From a virus, in UHGV virus genome UHGV-1378817: DNA of 64,000 nt, one strand, 5' to 3'. Within the stretch, counting starts at the first letter, position 1; every line of letters begins with the position of its first letter. Under the pieces are notes generated by a model. The model was not told the DNA's origin. It made no database searches and worked only from the letters and a program-made list of their open reading frames with translations. The translations under genes were made by a program, and so were the position numbers. Of the stretch, positions 2,578 to 38,130 are shown piece after piece.

Positions 2578-3426
2578 TTATGCCAGTGCAGCCTCAAAAT
2601 CTTTCATCATATTTTGGAAAGTTTTTGCCTTACTTAAGGTAACACCGTACTCTTTGGCGAAGGCTTGAAGTGCATCTTTTGAACCACTTTTGTCATCTTC
2701 GTTGTTAAGAGCTGCTGCCTGCTGTAGCAGGGCATCAACATCACTGCGAGAAGATCTTGATTCTTGTGCCTGTTCAGGATCCTGCTCAGTGCCTTCCTCC
2801 GGTACAGTCGGGCCTTGGGATTCTTCACCACCACCACCAGGTTCAGTAGGACCTACAGGCGGCTCCGGCTCTGGTTCAGGCGGTGGAGCTATCGTAGAGA
2901 CCAGTCCAAGATTTACAACCTGAGAACGTTTCTTAGGCCACTCAATGGTGAAAGTTTGGGTATCTTCTTCATAAACAATGCTGCATTGCTCATCGTTTAT
3001 GGTCACTTTTTTAGGCATCCCTACAGGGTCCCATAGATGGCCCTCTGCCACGGAAACTTGGAAAGCCGCATCTACCTCTTTAAACACTGACGGGGTGAGT
3101 GTGATATTGACATCCCCGCTTTGCAGTGTTAAAGTGCTTTCATCAAGGTTCTCTGTGAAGAACAGAAGAATAACACCCATACGGATAGTTGAAATACCAG
3201 TATCAATTGGCAGTCCTGTATGTTTTGCAATCTTCTCGAAGAAGTCTACAATCGTTCTGCACGGATAGTGAACACTGCCGATAACGAATTCTGTTGGTGG
3301 CAGCAGGGCTGATAAACCAACATTGATTTCTGGATTATATTGTGCTAAAAATTGATAAAAACTTAACTGATTGTTGAAAACTCTTAATAGAGGATCATAC
3401 TCAACTGGGTAGACGGTTCGCTTCAC
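2578..3426 (-). CDS. virion-associated protein with Pro/Glu-rich linker
   Basis: 282 aa; two domains separated by PPPEPEPEPPVGPTEPGGGGEE low-complexity linker; immediately downstream of capsid gene terminator. Confidence 0.35.
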   Translation of the reverse strand: MKRTVYPVEYDPLLRVFNNQLSFYQFLAQYNPEINVGLSALLPPTEFVIGSVHYPCRTIVDFFEKIAKHTGLPIDTGISTIRMGVILLFFTENLDESTLTLQSGDVNITLTPSVFKEVDAAFQVSVAEGHLWDPVGMPKKVTINDEQCSIVYEEDTQTFTIEWPKKRSQVVNLGLVSTIAPPPEPEPEPPVGPTEPGGGGEESQGPTVPEEGTEQDPEQAQESRSSRSDVDALLQQAAALNNEDDKSGSKDALQAFAKEYGVTLSKAKTFQNMMKDFEAALA

Positions 3427-3446
3427 GGGACACTCCTGTTAAACCC

Positions 3447-3484
3447 TAATAAATAAAAAGGGGAGGGGGAGAACCCCCTCCCCA
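3447..3484 (-). terminator. intrinsic terminator after major capsid gene
   Basis: GGGGAGGGGG-AGAA-CCCCCTCCCC hairpin followed on minus strand by TTTTTATTTATT. Confidence 0.7.
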
Positions 3485-3507
3485 TATGGGATGAATCACA
3501 TCAGTGA

Positions 3508-4518
3508 TTATTCACCACCTTTCAGAGTTGCTTTAACAACCAGCTCTGGACGGGTGTTAACTGCCAGCATGGAAGTTTCAGATTCAATCTTCTCTTCACG
3601 CAGGTATGCAGAGTGTTTATACCACATGTACAGTTCCTGTGCTGGAGTGTTTGCTTCGTTAACATCGTCTGCCGGAGCAAAGTGCAGCTGGAACATCTGA
3701 TCAATACCCATCGGCAGAATGCGAGCTTCTTTCTTAGGAATATTGCCAGAGATATCTTCAATAAAGGTGATACCTTTATGCTCAAACACACGGTATACGC
3801 TGTCTTGACCGCCAGCACCCAGACGGCGACGCAGAGGTTCCTGAGCAGAGCCGTAATAGGTGTATGCCAGTTCTACCAGCGGGTGATGAGTAACAGCACT
3901 GAAGAACTCCGGTGAGCACAGAGCTACAATGCGATAGCCAGCTGCGTTATCACCAGCTTGCAGTGCGATGTGCAGACGAGCTTCTTCCAGAACCTCCATA
4001 GGATCCTGATCTGCTTTTGCAGGGTCGATCTCAACAGACTTCTGAGACACACCCCACAGAGTGTAGTAATCATACTGGCAGGTAGCGTCACCAGGTGCAT
4101 AGGATTTACCAAGAATAGCCTGGAACAGCGCTTTCTCACGCAGTGCTTCATGGGAAACACGGATACGGCGAACAACGCGGGTTACTACGTCCTGAACAGT
4201 TTTCGGAGCATCAGGAGTGAAGTAACGACGGAAGTTCTGGACATCTGCAGCAGTGATACCTTTATCCAGAGGGAAGAACGGGATGTTCAGGTTTTTAACC
4301 TGAGCACGTTCATTACCAACGTAGTTACGCTCACCACCACGACGGCGTGCCGGAATGTCGGTTACAACTTCATCAACACGCTCAATCTGAGCAATTGTTG
4401 AGGTGCCAAGACGAGTTTCGAACAGATCCATGCCGGTAATCAGGCGAAATTGACGCGGAACAAGGTCCAGAGTAGCACCTAAATCGACAATGCCAAATTC
4501 ATCTTTACGAGTAATCAT
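3508..4518 (-). CDS. major capsid protein (putative)
   Basis: 336 aa ORF downstream of scaffold-like and decoration-like ORFs, followed by the strongest terminator in the block; position and size based. Confidence 0.5.
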   Translation of the reverse strand: MITRKDEFGIVDLGATLDLVPRQFRLITGMDLFETRLGTSTIAQIERVDEVVTDIPARRRGGERNYVGNERAQVKNLNIPFFPLDKGITAADVQNFRRYFTPDAPKTVQDVVTRVVRRIRVSHEALREKALFQAILGKSYAPGDATCQYDYYTLWGVSQKSVEIDPAKADQDPMEVLEEARLHIALQAGDNAAGYRIVALCSPEFFSAVTHHPLVELAYTYYGSAQEPLRRRLGAGGQDSVYRVFEHKGITFIEDISGNIPKKEARILPMGIDQMFQLHFAPADDVNEANTPAQELYMWYKHSAYLREEKIESETSMLAVNTRPELVVKATLKGGE

Positions 4519-35048: not shown

Positions 35049-35327
35049 ATGAGCTGCGAAAAATCTTTTTTCATCATCATTTACGGTAAGGATAACTGCC
35101 CACATTGTGTCAGAGCAAAAGAATTTGCAATCAGCAAAGGTCTGCCTTTTGTATATAAGACACTTGGCGAGGGCTACACAAAAGAAGAGCTTATTGAGAA
35201 GTGCAGTCCAATTGTCCCTAGAACGTTGCCGCAGATCTTCTTAGAAAGCGATCTTGACAGTGTCCATATAGGCGGTGCCGACGATTTCATCTCTTTTGTT
35301 AAGAATGGTTTTGGAGAGAAAAAGTGA
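35049..35327 (+). CDS. glutaredoxin-like protein (NrdH/NrdC-type redoxin)
   Basis: CPHC active site in KDNCPHCVRAKEF; 92 aa; between nrdB and nrdD. Confidence 0.7.
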   Translation: MSCEKSFFIIIYGKDNCPHCVRAKEFAISKGLPFVYKTLGEGYTKEELIEKCSPIVPRTLPQIFLESDLDSVHIGGADDFISFVKNGFGEKK

Positions 35328-37447
35328 AAGTTGTAAAACGGGACGGTAGAGAAGAGTTCTATAACGGAATTAAGGTGATCAAGGCGGCAGAGTCCGCCTT
35401 ACTTGAGTCTGGGCATACTGAAGAAGAAGCTTACCGGATCGCCTGCGCGGTTAATGAAGTTGTTGCTAACAATCTACCAACCGACCAGTGCACGATCTCT
35501 GTAAAAAATATCCATATCCTTGTTGAAGATGCTCTTATGGATATGGGTTTAAAATGTGCAGCCAGAGAATACATCCAGTATAGACAGACAAGAGATAATA
35601 ACAGAGAGGCAGGTGGAAAACTGCTTGCAGATATTAGTGGCTTCTTGGATCGAACTTGTGATGAATTTACAAAAGAAAACGCAAATAAGCCTACTAATCA
35701 TGTACACACTCATCGCGACCTGCTTGCGGGTATTCTTAGCAAACACCTTGCATCAACACAGATCCTGCCAGACCGTGTCTCCGAAGAGCACAATAAGGGC
35801 TTCATCCATGTGCATGATCTTGACTACTTGATCAGTCCGTTAACAAACTGTTGTTTGGTAAACTATCCAGATATGTTGGAAAACGGATTCAACATTGGTA
35901 ACGCCCATGTCAGTAAGCCGAAGTCAATAGGGGTTGCAACAACAATCCTTAGCCAAATCTCTAGTGCGGTAGCTAGTGCTCAATATGGTGGTCAGACTAT
36001 GAGCCATATTGATCATTATCTGGCACAGTATGCTGAAGCAACCTATGAGAAGAACCTTAAATTTTGCCAGGAACATTGGTTGCCAGATGCTGAGAGTGTT
36101 GCAATGCAAATGACAGATAAAGACGTATTTGACAGCATGCAGACTTTGCTCTATCAAATCAATACGTTAACTTCTGTCAACGGGCAAACTCCATTCATCA
36201 CATTGAGTTTAGGACTGGATACCTCGGTCTTTGGTAGAATGATTACCAAAAACTACCTGAAAGTCCACAAAATGGGTCTTGGTGAAGAACGTATTACACC
36301 TGTGTTTCCTAAAGTGCTGTTCTTCCTAGAAGAGGGTGTCAACATGAACCCTGGGGATCCTAACTATGATTTGAAACGATTAGCTCTGGAATGCTGTGCA
36401 GAACGTATCTACCCTGACTTCGTGTCTGTACCACTAAATAGAAAAGTGACAGGCTCGACAGATGGCAAAGTAACGAGCATGGGTTGCCGGAGTTTTCTTA
36501 GCAAATACAATGACTTGGAAACAGGCGAGGAGAAATATCTTGGCAGATTTAACTTAGGCGTTGTTAGCCTTAACCTGCCAATGATTGCGGCAAAAGCTAA
36601 GACGGAAGGTGTTGATTTCTTTGCAGTTCTTGACGAATACTTGGATCTTGCATACGAGGCTCACCTTGTAAGGGTTAATCGTCTAAAAGGAACAAAGGCA
36701 GGGCAGAACCCCATCATGTGGTGTGAAGGCGCTCTTGCTCGCCTGGATCCTGAAGAGAGTATTGATAAACTCTTCTATGACGGGTACGCTTCCATCAGTA
36801 TTGGGTATATCGGTGTGTATGAAACCTGTCAGATTTTGGGTAGAGAGGGTGACAAGGCTTTAGCTCTTGGAATCCTTCAGCACATGAGAGATGCTTGTGA
36901 GCGATACAAGAAGGAAAGTAGACTAGCATTTAGCTTGTACGGCACTCCTTCTGAGAGTCTATGCTATAAAGCTGCAACCTGTCTGGATCGTGAATATCCG
37001 GAAGTGTTAAAGCACGATCATGAATATCTCACCAACAGTTTCCATCAGCCAGTATGGATAAATAGCTCTCCTTTTGATAAGTGGGAGTATGAGGAAGGTT
37101 TTGCTATGATCTCCTCTGGTGGCAACATCGGATACGTAGAGACACCTAACCTGAAAAACAACCTGGATGCTTTAGAGGCTCTTGTTGACTTCGGGTATAA
37201 ACACATTATGTATTTTGGTATTAACCAACCTGTGGATAAATGTCTCAAGTGCGGTTTCTCTGGTGAGTTCAGTGCAACAGCTAAAGGCTTTGTATGCCCA
37301 GAGTGTGGAAACCATGAAGAGGGAACGATCAGTGTAATTCGACGTGTGTCTGGATACCTTTCCAGTCCTAACTCCCGTCCTTACAATAAAGGTAAGCAAG
37401 CGGAAGTTATCGAGCGAGTTAAGCACTACGGAAGTTGTGGTTGCTGA
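35324..37447 (+). CDS. nrdD: anaerobic ribonucleoside-triphosphate reductase
   Basis: 707 aa; C-terminal zinc ribbon CLKCG...CPECG and glycyl-radical motif RVSGYL. Confidence 0.9.
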   Translation: MKVVKRDGREEFYNGIKVIKAAESALLESGHTEEEAYRIACAVNEVVANNLPTDQCTISVKNIHILVEDALMDMGLKCAAREYIQYRQTRDNNREAGGKLLADISGFLDRTCDEFTKENANKPTNHVHTHRDLLAGILSKHLASTQILPDRVSEEHNKGFIHVHDLDYLISPLTNCCLVNYPDMLENGFNIGNAHVSKPKSIGVATTILSQISSAVASAQYGGQTMSHIDHYLAQYAEATYEKNLKFCQEHWLPDAESVAMQMTDKDVFDSMQTLLYQINTLTSVNGQTPFITLSLGLDTSVFGRMITKNYLKVHKMGLGEERITPVFPKVLFFLEEGVNMNPGDPNYDLKRLALECCAERIYPDFVSVPLNRKVTGSTDGKVTSMGCRSFLSKYNDLETGEEKYLGRFNLGVVSLNLPMIAAKAKTEGVDFFAVLDEYLDLAYEAHLVRVNRLKGTKAGQNPIMWCEGALARLDPEESIDKLFYDGYASISIGYIGVYETCQILGREGDKALALGILQHMRDACERYKKESRLAFSLYGTPSESLCYKAATCLDREYPEVLKHDHEYLTNSFHQPVWINSSPFDKWEYEEGFAMISSGGNIGYVETPNLKNNLDALEALVDFGYKHIMYFGINQPVDKCLKCGFSGEFSATAKGFVCPECGNHEEGTISVIRRVSGYLSSPNSRPYNKGKQAEVIERVKHYGSCGC

Positions 37448-37510
37448 TTCTTGACAAAAGCCACAAGGATGTGGCATATTATTGACACACAGTGAGCTAG
37501 GAGGTGCAGT

Positions 37511-37627
37511 ATGTCATCAGGTATTTATAAAATTTGCAAGTGCGGCTGTAGTTGCAATCTTCGTTGGTGCAAGGCACTAGACGATTTTATTTGGCATTGC
37601 CCTAAATGTGATGCGGAGTATCTATGA
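37511..37627 (+). CDS. small Cys-rich zinc-ribbon-like protein (38 aa)
   Basis: MSSGIYKICKCGCSCNLRWCKALDDFIWHCPKCDAEYL; GGAGGTG SD 6 nt upstream; ATGA overlap with nrdG; below ORF-track size cutoff. Confidence 0.4.
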   Translation: MSSGIYKICKCGCSCNLRWCKALDDFIWHCPKCDAEYL

Positions 37628-38097
37628 ACATTGTCGGATACACAGAAATATCTTACACCGAAGGGCCAGGTATTAGAACTGCCTTGTGGGTATCTGGGTG
37701 CCCACACGCTTGCCCTGGTTGCTTTAATCAGGCATTTTGGTCAAAAGATAAGGGGAGGGAGTTCACTGAAGAAGACTTGCAAAAAATCTTGTCAGATTTA
37801 GATAACCCGTCTGTGTGCGGTATCTCTCTACTGGGTGGAGAACCCTTAGCATACTATAATGAGCCAGATATTATTAGCCTGATGGAGAAAATTAAGGAAA
37901 AATTTGGTGACAAGAAAACTATTCTTGTATATACTGGGTTCACATTTGACCATATCTCTAGTGATGTTCTTAAACTGGCTGATATCATCATTGACGGTAA
38001 GTATGTAAAAGATTTACCAACCAAGAAACCGTTCAGAGGCAGTGATAACCAAAGAATGTTTAAAAAAGTATCAGGCGGTTGGGTTCAGGTAGACTAG
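37624..38097 (+). CDS. nrdG: anaerobic ribonucleotide reductase activating protein (radical SAM)
   Basis: Cys cluster GCPHACPGCFN near N-terminus. Confidence 0.85.
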   Translation: MNIVGYTEISYTEGPGIRTALWVSGCPHACPGCFNQAFWSKDKGREFTEEDLQKILSDLDNPSVCGISLLGGEPLAYYNEPDIISLMEKIKEKFGDKKTILVYTGFTFDHISSDVLKLADIIIDGKYVKDLPTKKPFRGSDNQRMFKKVSGGWVQVD

Positions 38098-38100
38098 TTG

Positions 38101-38130
38101 TTGACAAAGCTTTGTTGAGTTGGTTATAAT
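38101..38130 (+). promoter_or_regulatory. sigma70-like promoter
   Basis: TTGACA, 18-nt spacer, TATAAT. Confidence 0.6.

What the first reader, a model, noticed from the sequence alone, without database searches (positions are those of the whole stretch)
37511..37627. Unannotated 38-aa Cys-rich ORF between nrdD and nrdG
Below the ORF-track size cutoff but with a strong GGAGGTG SD, a CxC...C...C and C..C zinc-ribbon-like pattern, and an ATGA overlap with nrdG. Its position suggests a small accessory factor of the anaerobic reductase system.
Basis: seen in the sequence. Interest (0 to 1): 0.45.

Follow-up and report, generated by a model that had tools for sequence, protein, structure and literature searches.

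The report
Conserved Cys-rich mini-gene after phage nrdD
The 38-codon ORF is a real, strongly conserved gene for a tiny zinc-ribbon-like protein found in rV5-like E. coli phages, already listed in databases as hypothetical, and more likely a portable add-on gene than a required part of the anaerobic ribonucleotide reductase.

Summary
The ORF at 37511..37627 (+) is as described: GGAGGTG Shine-Dalgarno, seven Cys, ATGA overlap with nrdG. The window is an rV5-like Vequintavirus.

The ORF is a real gene. Ten DNA alleles give pN/pS of about 0.10, with synonymous sites near saturation. All seven Cys are invariant. Its core has the lowest pN of the four neighbourhood genes compared.

It is not new. 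Many GenBank/RefSeq records annotate it, as 'hypothetical protein' or, after its neighbour, 'ribonucleotide reductase'. It matches PHROG 20137 at E 5e-30.

The RNR-accessory reading is not supported:
- Seunavirus, Certrevirus, Justusliebigvirus and a T4-like phage have nrdD and nrdG overlapping directly, with no such ORF.
- rV5 itself has about 385 bp and extra ORFs between the small ORF and nrdG.
- A 77%-identical copy sits between nucleotide kinase and DNA ligase in podophage ACG-C91, which has no nrd genes.

No homologue of known function turned up in Pfam, NCBIfam, PADLOC, PDB or a 1.84-billion-protein profile search. AlphaFold gives a low-confidence three-stranded, zinc-ribbon-like model.

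Best reading: an autonomous, metal-binding mini-protein cassette inserted at a gene junction, target unknown. A lineage-specific link to NrdD/NrdG is not excluded.

The parts
35324..37447 (+). nrdD (class III RNR catalytic subunit, 707 aa, uninterrupted here). It carries its own C-terminal Zn-ribbon (CLKC...CPEC) and glycyl-radical motif (RRVSGY).
   Evidence: ORF list. Annotated homologues.
37451..37480 (+). Sigma-70 promoter-like site TTGACA-18-CATATT with a TG extension, in the 63-nt nrdD/small-ORF spacer. Consensus match only.
   Evidence: 10 of 12 matches. Conserved in rV5, Alma and Aya but not in L005/L006.
37460..37475 (+). 6-bp hairpin GCCACA-AGGA-TGTGGC followed by ATATTATT (weak terminator-like element), lying within the promoter-like spacer.
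   Evidence: L005/L006 carry a different hairpin (GGCCAG...CTGGCC) at the same place.
37500..37506 (+). Shine-Dalgarno GGAGGTG of the small ORF.
   Evidence: The core TAGGAGGT is conserved across the Vequintavirus alleles window, rV5, Alma and Aya.
37511..37627 (+). Small ORF, 38 aa, seven invariant Cys, zinc-ribbon-like. Member of PHROG 20137.
37615..37618 (+). GGAG inside the small ORF (codons Ala35-Glu36), 5 nt upstream of the nrdG ATG. It is the likely SD for the downstream gene, and the same arrangement precedes the ligase ATG in ACG-C91.
37624..38097 (+). nrdG (radical-SAM activase, 157 aa). Its start overlaps the small ORF stop (ATGA).

Best explanation
The ORF encodes a genuine 38-aa cysteine-rich mini-protein. 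It most likely folds as a small zinc-ribbon around metal: knuckle C9-x-C11 (CxxC in longer variants) plus knuckle C30-P-x-C33. Three further invariant Cys (13, 15, 20) are available for a second metal site or a partner.

It is a lineage-specific, self-contained gene cassette inserted into the ancestrally overlapping nrdD|nrdG junction of Vequintavirus-like phages. Its 5' side carries a promoter-like site and a strong SD. Its last codons supply an SD and the ATG for whatever gene follows. This makes the insert translationally neutral and portable, and the same cassette sits ATG-to-ATG in front of DNA ligase in podophage ACG-C91.

I infer that it acts as an autonomous small metal-stabilised binding protein, made together with the nucleotide-metabolism and replication genes. 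Its target is a conserved but unidentified host or phage macromolecule. It is not an obligatory subunit of the class III reductase.

Shown: coding status, constraint, distribution, cassette architecture and absence from sister taxa. Inferred: metal binding, fold, and mode of action by binding.
For: Real gene under strong constraint:
- pN/pS is 0.04-0.23 pairwise and 0.097 pooled.
- pS against distant lineages is 0.6-0.8, the same as the neighbouring genes, so the similarity is old rather than a recent transfer.
- pN for the core is 0.056-0.084, against 0.12-0.14 for the NrdD C-terminus and 0.33-0.39 for NrdG and PhoH.
- All seven Cys and the NLRWC...LDD.IW.CP.C..EYL motif are invariant.

Fold: AlphaFold gives three strands (16-20, 25-30, 35-37) at mean pLDDT 65. 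The best, non-significant fold hits are zinc ribbons (Rpb9, ribosomal Zn-ribbon proteins, ZifS, a NUDIX N-terminal domain).

Insertion, not a core part of the system: nrdD and nrdG overlap directly in Seunavirus, Certrevirus, Justusliebigvirus and a T4-like phage.

Independence from nrdG: rV5, Alma, L020, L029 and L030 have a TAA stop and about 190-390 bp with extra ORFs before nrdG.

Portability:
- ACG-C91 carries a copy between kinase and ligase with the same ...GGAGTATTTATGAATAT junction, and has no nrd genes.
- In other Vectrevirus phages that slot is empty or holds other mini-ORFs.
- The junction is a hotspot for mobile DNA: HNH inserts in nrdD and a T5orf172 gene in L021.
Against: No experimental data exist, and no homologue of known function was found, so the mode of action is inference.

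In about 120 Vequintavirus records the ORF is present one-for-one with nrdD. 119 records carry the nrdD 3' end at 80% identity or more, and about 120 carry the ORF.

It has been kept through at least three deeply diverged nrdG modules. This is also what a reductase-linked function would predict.

The only copy outside that context, in ACG-C91, infects E. coli. E. coli has its own NrdDG (established knowledge), so that exception is not decisive.

The AlphaFold model has low confidence, and metal binding is untested.
Confidence: 0.5

Rival explanations
1. A lineage-specific accessory of the class III reductase. The mini-protein would bind phage (or host) NrdD or NrdG. It might act as a stand-alone Zn-ribbon that assists or gates glycyl-radical activation, or stabilises NrdG, and it is co-translated with nrdG.
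For: It always lies immediately 3' of nrdD in Vequintavirus and in divergent relatives.

It is retained with three deeply diverged nrdG alleles.

It has an ATGA overlap with nrdG in the window type and the L005/L006/L027 type.

The degree of constraint on it is similar to that on the NrdD C-terminus.
Against: It is absent from every other phage group examined that carries nrdD-nrdG.

It is present in ACG-C91, which lacks nrd genes.

It is uncoupled from nrdG in rV5-type genomes.

Its sequence stays about 90% constant while NrdG varies to about 50%, so there is no sign of co-variation.

One metagenomic contig has the ORF truncated and fused while nrdG remains intact.
Confidence: 0.25
2. A mini rubredoxin-like Fe(Cys)4 or Fe-S redox protein that donates electrons to the NrdG [4Fe-4S] cluster, replacing host flavodoxin, or to NrdD.
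For: The knuckles are of the rubredoxin/Zn-ribbon kind: CxxCG in the 53-54 aa variants and W-x-C-P-x-C.

Seven invariant Cys is more than a single Zn site needs.

The ORF sits in a redox-gene neighbourhood: glutaredoxin-like 35049..35327, then nrdD and nrdG.
Against: There is no Pfam or NCBIfam rubredoxin match.

The knuckles are 17-18 residues apart rather than the roughly 29 of rubredoxin (rubredoxin spacing from my own knowledge).

The distribution arguments against the accessory rival apply here too, including ACG-C91.
Confidence: 0.06
3. The peptide itself has no function. The ORF would be only a translated leader whose strong SD and ATGA overlap deliver ribosomes to the downstream gene.
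For: There is a strong SD, an ATGA overlap and an embedded GGAG for the next gene, both here and in ACG-C91.
Against: The amino-acid sequence is under strong purifying selection, with invariant Cys.

The ORF is kept intact in rV5-type genomes, where it ends in TAA and nothing is coupled to it.
Confidence: 0.04
4. The conservation belongs to the antisense ORF (37525..37707, -) or to an RNA or terminator element, such as the terminator annotated inside the ORF in phage Murica.
For: The antisense frame is open in all ten alleles.

Murica annotates a terminator at the equivalent of 37561-37584, and the scan finds a weak hairpin plus T-run there.
Against: The antisense frame shares third positions with the sense frame and has a higher pN/pS (0.22 against 0.10).

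Its start lies in a different downstream gene in each lineage (nrdG, ligase, or spacer).

All neighbouring genes are on the + strand.

The hairpin and T-run are not kept in ACG-C91 or L006.
Confidence: 0.02

Closest known systems
PHROG 20137 / GenBank 'hypothetical protein' of rV5-like phages (e.g. FFH2 YP_009031017, JohannBauhin QXV81303; rV5 annotates ORF 114 ABI79179 over the same stretch, but its coordinates put it in a different reading frame)
   Same: It is the same protein family. The match is full-length at E 4.7e-30, and tblastn finds 100% identical copies in many records.
   Different: Nothing differs; the window ORF is a member of this family. The family has no characterised member. 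Its 'ribonucleotide reductase' label is not backed by any detectable similarity to an RNR protein and looks copied from the neighbouring gene. The analogous K1E mini-ORF hits a PHROG labelled 'DNA ligase'.
Zinc-ribbon mini-domains and mini-proteins (ribosomal eL43/L37ae, Rpb9/TFIIS-type ribbons, small archaeal and bacterial zinc-finger proteins such as ZifS and HVO_0758)
   Same: It has two Cys knuckles flanking a predicted three-stranded sheet. Its IWHCPKC knuckle is identical to one in an eL43 chain. The top fold hits are zinc ribbons.
   Different: All matches are non-significant (E above 0.1). The first knuckle is CxC in most alleles. Three extra invariant Cys have no counterpart in these proteins. 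There is no evidence of common ancestry.
C-terminal Zn(Cys)4 ribbon of NrdD itself (here CLKCG-x13-CPECG, just before the glycyl-radical loop)
   Same: It has a similar knuckle style (KCG ... CPxC) and is encoded 100 nt downstream of that domain. The role of the NrdD Zn site in radical generation is from my own knowledge, not tested here.
   Different: The spacing differs (17 residues against 13), there are extra Cys, and no similarity beyond the knuckles is apparent by eye (no alignment was run). I treat this as a lead only.
Other junction mini-ORFs of T7/SP6-like phages, e.g. the K1E 38-aa CxxC...CxxC protein in the same kinase|ligase slot (weak Lar / ECs_2282-family similarity)
   Same: They share size, Zn-ribbon-type Cys pairs, the ATG-to-ATG cassette position and an overlap with the downstream start.
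   Different: The sequences are unrelated. The Lar-like hits are below the curated cut-offs and concern the K1E protein, not this one.
Rubredoxin
   Same: The CxxCG and W-x-CPxC knuckles and the small size are shared.
   Different: There is no profile match. The inter-knuckle segment is much shorter, and the metal is unknown.

Membership tests
PHROG 20137 (phage mini-protein family) | Full-length profile match | tested here: met
   E 4.7e-30, residues 1-38 on profile positions 1-38 of 38.
Zinc-ribbon fold | Two Cys-pair knuckles (CxxC/CxC ... CxxC), invariant across homologues | tested here: met
   C9/C11 (CxxC in the 41-54 aa variants) and C30/C33 are invariant in all alleles.
Zinc-ribbon fold | Three-stranded antiparallel sheet carrying the knuckles, with structural similarity to known ribbons | tested here: inconclusive
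   AlphaFold predicts three strands, but mean pLDDT is 65 and pTM 0.35. The Foldseek top hits are zinc ribbons, but all have E above 1.
Zinc-ribbon fold | Binds one Zn through four Cys | not testable with these tools
   This needs metal analysis of purified protein. Seven invariant Cys leave the stoichiometry open.
Class III RNR system (NrdD/NrdG accessory component) | Co-occurs with nrdD-nrdG across taxa that carry the system | tested here: not met
   Absent in SSE121, EspYZU14, CB7, W22 and PECP20, where nrdD and nrdG overlap by 4 nt. The profile search of 1.84 billion proteins finds the family only in Vequintavirus-like phages.
Class III RNR system (NrdD/NrdG accessory component) | Found only in genomes that encode the system | tested here: not met
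   ACG-C91 carries the ORF but has no NrdA/B/D/G homologue.
Class III RNR system (NrdD/NrdG accessory component) | Physical or functional interaction with NrdD or NrdG | not testable with these tools
   Only single-chain prediction was available, and no experimental data were found.
Rubredoxin | Match to rubredoxin profiles and about 29-residue knuckle spacing | tested here: not met
   No Pfam hit at E up to 10 and no NCBIfam rubredoxin hit. The spacing here is 17-18 residues.
Glutaredoxin/NrdH-type redoxin | Thioredoxin fold of about 75-90 aa with a CxxC active site | tested here: not met
   The protein is 38 aa with no profile match. The real glutaredoxin-like gene is the separate ORF 35049..35327.
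Anti-phage defence or known defence-associated proteins (PADLOC) | Profile match | tested here: not met
   no families matched.

The most novel reading that the evidence does not exclude
The mini-protein is a dedicated metallo-partner of the phage class III ribonucleotide reductase, acquired only by the rV5 lineage. It could be a free-standing Zn/Fe-Cys module that docks on NrdD or NrdG and tunes glycyl-radical activation, or one that supplies electrons to NrdG. In ACG-C91 it would act on the host's NrdDG. That would be a third, previously unrecognised component of an enzyme system thought to need only NrdD and NrdG.
Probability: 0.15. Interest if true: 0.6.

Novelty: new member of a known kind. 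Interest (0 to 1): 0.25.

Why it matters
The practical gains are modest.

The work corrects a propagated mis-annotation. The 'ribonucleotide reductase' and 'anaerobic ribonucleoside-triphosphate reductase' labels on a 38-aa protein have no sequence-similarity support and appear to come from its neighbour.

It also documents a clean example of a plug-in mini-gene cassette. The cassette carries translation signals for itself and for the gene it displaces, and it has moved between a myovirus and a podovirus.

The protein's core has the lowest pN of the four genes compared (NrdD C-terminus, NrdG, PhoH and the ORF itself). It is therefore a reasonable candidate for a small host- or enzyme-targeting factor, and worth a knockout and a pull-down.

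If it did turn out to act on NrdD/NrdG, it would add a component to class III RNR biology.

Tried and rejected
Homology searches that found nothing of known function:
- Pfam, NCBIfam, PADLOC and a PDB sequence profile gave nothing significant.
- The word-indexed search of 5.8 billion proteins found 9 clusters, all the same family.
- The exhaustive HMM search of 1.84 billion representatives gave only two further informative hits, P0010 and the fusion P0012. The other hit above threshold, P0011, appears to be a spurious match to a repeat-rich protein.
- IMG/VR and metagenome scans found 3 and 4 loci, all Vequintavirus-like or ACG-C91 itself.

Structure: the Foldseek PDB search on the AlphaFold model gave no significant hit.

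Literature: two full-text searches found no paper on this ORF.

Rejected readings:
- Read-through or extension of NrdD. The ORF is in the same frame as nrdD, but two in-frame stops (37445 and 37490) intervene.
- Paralogues in the window. There are none.
- A recent horizontal sweep as the cause of the high similarity. pS is as saturated as in the neighbouring genes.
- An antisense gene or an internal terminator.

Not attempted: co-folding with NrdD or NrdG. The structure tool takes single chains drawn from the window or from search hits only, and the alignments available would be too shallow.

Not tested: a resemblance to the I-TevI zinc finger (CxCG...CxxC). I recalled this from memory, so it is a lead only.

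Full report
**What is in the sequence**

The window carries an ATG ORF at 37511..37627 on the + strand, encoding MSSGIYKICKCGCSCNLRWCKALDDFIWHCPKCDAEYL.
- GGAGGTG lies at 37500-37506, four bases before the ATG.
- The stop TGA overlaps the ATG of the 157-aa radical-SAM activase gene nrdG (37624..38097) as ATGA.
- The 707-aa nrdD ends 63 nt upstream, at 37447.
- There are seven cysteines, at 9, 11, 13, 15, 20, 30 and 33.

The 63-nt spacer holds a promoter-like site, TTGACA-18-CATATT with a TG extension, and a 6-bp hairpin followed by a weak T-run.

**Where the window comes from, and whether the ORF is 'unannotated'**

The region is 95-99% identical to rV5-like E. coli myophages of the genus Vequintavirus. 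The same 38-aa protein is found by tblastn in 122 phage records.

Annotation is inconsistent:
- Many records annotate it as 'hypothetical protein', for example JohannBauhin bas53_0180.
- rV5 itself annotates a longer ORF 114 over the same stretch.
- RefSeq calls it 'ribonucleotide reductase', as in FFH2 YP_009031017.
- Other records skip it. Murica annotates a terminator inside it instead.

The protein matches PHROG 20137 over its full length at E 4.7e-30, and that family is labelled 'ribonucleotide reductase'. No RNR similarity backs that label. Pfam finds nothing even at E up to 10, so the name appears to be copied from the neighbouring gene. The analogous mini-ORF next to the ligase of phage K1E hits a PHROG labelled 'DNA ligase'.

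**Is it a real gene?**

I collected ten distinct DNA alleles of the 28-codon core. Pooled Nei-Gojobori pN/pS is 0.097 in the annotated frame, and 19 of the 32 variable sites are at codon position 3. Four other frames have stops or ratios of about 1 or more. The antisense frame that shares third positions is open, but its ratio is higher at 0.22, and it starts in a different downstream gene in each lineage.

Against the divergent lineages L006 and L020, synonymous sites are as saturated as in the neighbouring genes:
- small ORF: pS 0.61-0.63
- nrdD, nrdG, phoH: pS 0.68-0.82

The similarity is therefore old rather than a recent sweep. The non-synonymous distances are:
- small ORF core: pN 0.056-0.084
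- NrdD C-terminus: pN 0.12-0.14
- NrdG and PhoH: pN 0.33-0.39

The core of this mini-protein has the lowest pN of the four genes compared. All seven Cys are invariant, as is the motif N-L-R-W-C-x2-L-D-D-x-I-W-x-C-P-x-C-x2-E-Y-L. His29 alternates with Tyr, so it is not a metal ligand.

**Distribution and context**

Inside Vequintavirus the ORF tracks nrdD one-for-one. 119 records carry the nrdD 3' end at 80% identity or more, and about 120 carry the ORF.

More divergent ~133-140 kb relatives found in metagenomes (PhoH about 50% identical) carry 41-, 53- or 54-aa versions. The 53- and 54-aa versions have a Lys/Glu-rich N-terminal extension, and these variants have a CxxC first knuckle. They also sit right after nrdD.

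Downstream there are two ancient module types:
- In the window type, and in the L005/L006/L027 type, the ORF overlaps nrdG by ATGA.
- In rV5, Alma, L020, L029 and L030 the ORF ends in TAA. It is followed by about 190-390 bp with one or two extra small ORFs, then a deeply diverged nrdG allele that is 53% identical to the window's. In rV5 this sits beside an nrdD that is 99.7% identical and a phoH that is 100% identical to the window's.

The ORF does not therefore need to be coupled to nrdG.

One Alma allele has a 1-nt insertion that changes the last residues. One metagenomic contig has the ORF truncated after Cys20 and fused to the 78-aa ORF. A T5orf172 (GIY-YIG-like) gene lies upstream and nrdG is intact.

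**Sister taxa**

nrdD and nrdG overlap directly by 4 nt, with nothing between them, in:
- Seunavirus (SSE121, EspYZU14)
- Certrevirus (CB7)
- Justusliebigvirus (W22)
- a T4-like phage (PECP20)

The ancestral state is thus a directly coupled nrdD-nrdG pair, and the small ORF is an insertion specific to the rV5 lineage. Class III reductases in all these phages work without it.

**A copy outside any nrd context**

The SP6-like podophage vB_EcoP_ACG-C91 (Vectrevirus, 43.7 kb) carries an unannotated 36-aa copy, MSVFKICKCGCRCNLRWCKALDDVIWYCPKCNTEYL. It is 77% identical at the protein level, and all seven Cys are kept. It lies between the nucleotide-kinase gene and the ATP-dependent DNA ligase gene.

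That genome has no homologue of NrdA, B, D or G.

The junctions are precise. In LL11 the slot is empty (...TGATATGAATATC...). In ACG-C91 the cassette sits ATG-to-ATG and ends ...ACGGAGTATTTATGAATATC. Compare ...GCGGAGTATCTATGAACATT in the window. The cassette uses the old SD for itself and provides a GGAG and the start codon for the displaced gene.

In other Vectrevirus phages the same slot holds unrelated mini-ORFs. One is another 38-aa CxxC...CxxC protein in K1E. This behaviour is that of a portable junction cassette. The likely direction of transfer was Vequintavirus to ACG-C91, since many genomes carry the ORF on one side and one on the other, and the closest allele is the Aya type.

**What the protein looks like**

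AlphaFold on the shallow family alignment gives three beta-strands (16-20, 25-30, 35-37). Mean pLDDT is 65 and pTM is 0.35.

Foldseek against the PDB finds nothing significant. The top-ranked hits are nearly all zinc ribbons: ribosomal Zn-ribbon proteins, Rpb9, a NUDIX N-terminal ribbon and ZifS.

Profile searches of the PDB and NCBIfam give only knuckle-level matches, for example IWHCPKC in an eL43 chain. PADLOC gives nothing.

The exhaustive HMM search of 1.84 billion representative proteins returns only the family itself. IMG/VR and metagenome scans add only more Vequintavirus-like loci. There is no paralogue in the window. Two literature searches found nothing on this ORF.

**Interpretation**

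Shown:
- it is a translated-looking, strongly constrained, Cys7 mini-protein gene;
- it is a lineage-specific insertion at the nrdD|nrdG junction;
- it has a cassette architecture with its own translation signals at the 5' end and signals for the next gene at the 3' end;
- it has moved to an unrelated junction in a podophage;
- it lies in a region with much mobile-element traffic, namely HNH inserts in nrdD of FFH2, L006 and L020, and the T5orf172 gene in L021.

Inferred:
- it folds as a metal-stabilised zinc ribbon, with C9/C11 and C30/C33 as the knuckles;
- the three further invariant Cys serve a second site or a partner;
- it acts by binding a conserved macromolecule.

My best estimate (0.5) is an autonomous accessory protein, co-expressed with the nucleotide-metabolism and replication genes, whose target is unknown.

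The main rival (0.25) is a lineage-specific partner of NrdD/NrdG. It draws support from the unbroken linkage to nrdD, from retention through three deep nrdG modules, and from the fact that ACG-C91's host has its own NrdDG (established knowledge). A rubredoxin-like electron donor is a small subset of that rival (0.06). A mere translational leader (0.04) and an antisense or RNA element (0.02) are disfavoured by the selection pattern.

**Verdict**

The ORF is real but already catalogued as a hypothetical protein family.

Novelty: a new (uncharacterised) member of the known kind 'small phage zinc-ribbon mini-proteins'. Interest is about 0.25.

Noticed in passing
window 37200-37900 versus GenBank MG0656xx records: Eighteen records named 'Campylobacter phage' (host C. 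jejuni) are 96-99% identical to this rV5-like E. coli phage region. They are probably mislabelled or contaminant phages.
   Followed up: no
window 37447-38097 versus L012 (rV5) 2939-3975: The mosaic boundary falls right after the nrdD stop. nrdD (99.7% aa, pS 0.19) and phoH (100% aa) are nearly identical between the window and rV5, yet the small ORF (pS 0.53) and nrdG (53% aa, pS 0.69) are deeply diverged alleles. The rV5 type adds a 34-aa ORF and a 78-aa ORF (phrog_3249, annotated 'minor capsid protein').
   Followed up: partly
window 35324..37447; L001 1327-4248; L006 2274-5936; L020 1862-4948; L025, L029, L030: nrdD is uninterrupted in the window. In FFH2 and several metagenomic relatives it is split by one or two inserts, some of which encode HNH endonucleases and may be introns or inteins.
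   Followed up: no
L021 3-840 (ENA k127_6245737): A T5orf172 (GIY-YIG-like) gene with a treble-clef zinc-finger domain sits upstream of a natural fusion: the first 20 codons of the small ORF joined to the C-terminal part of the 78-aa ORF, with nrdG intact downstream. It is either a real rearrangement or an assembly chimera.
   Followed up: partly
window 38101..38130: A perfect sigma-70 consensus, TTGACA-18-TATAAT, lies just after nrdG. It corresponds to the promoter annotated as P118 in rV5.
   Followed up: no
L017 499-615 (K1E), L018 499-672 (vB_EcoP_B), L019 (LL11): The Vectrevirus nucleotide-kinase|ligase junction is a swap slot. It is empty in LL11. K1E holds a different 38-aa CxxC...CxxC protein with weak, sub-threshold Lar / ECs_2282-family similarity. 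vB_EcoP_B holds a 57-aa non-Cys protein.
   Followed up: partly
window 37433-37447: NrdD ends in ...HYGSCGC, a Cys-x-Cys tail absent from the L020 relative (...HVGNVDYCPLSK). It is reminiscent of the redox-shuttle C-terminal Cys pairs of class I RNRs. I did not examine this.
   Followed up: no
window 37525..37707 (-): An antisense 60-aa 'shadow' ORF is open in all ten alleles because its third codon positions coincide with those of the sense ORF. It could mislead gene callers.
   Followed up: yes
window 35049..35327: A glutaredoxin/thioredoxin-like gene (92 aa, CPHC, phrog_22) overlaps the GTG start of nrdD by 4 nt. The operon thus reads nrdA-nrdB-grx-nrdD-miniORF-nrdG.
   Followed up: no
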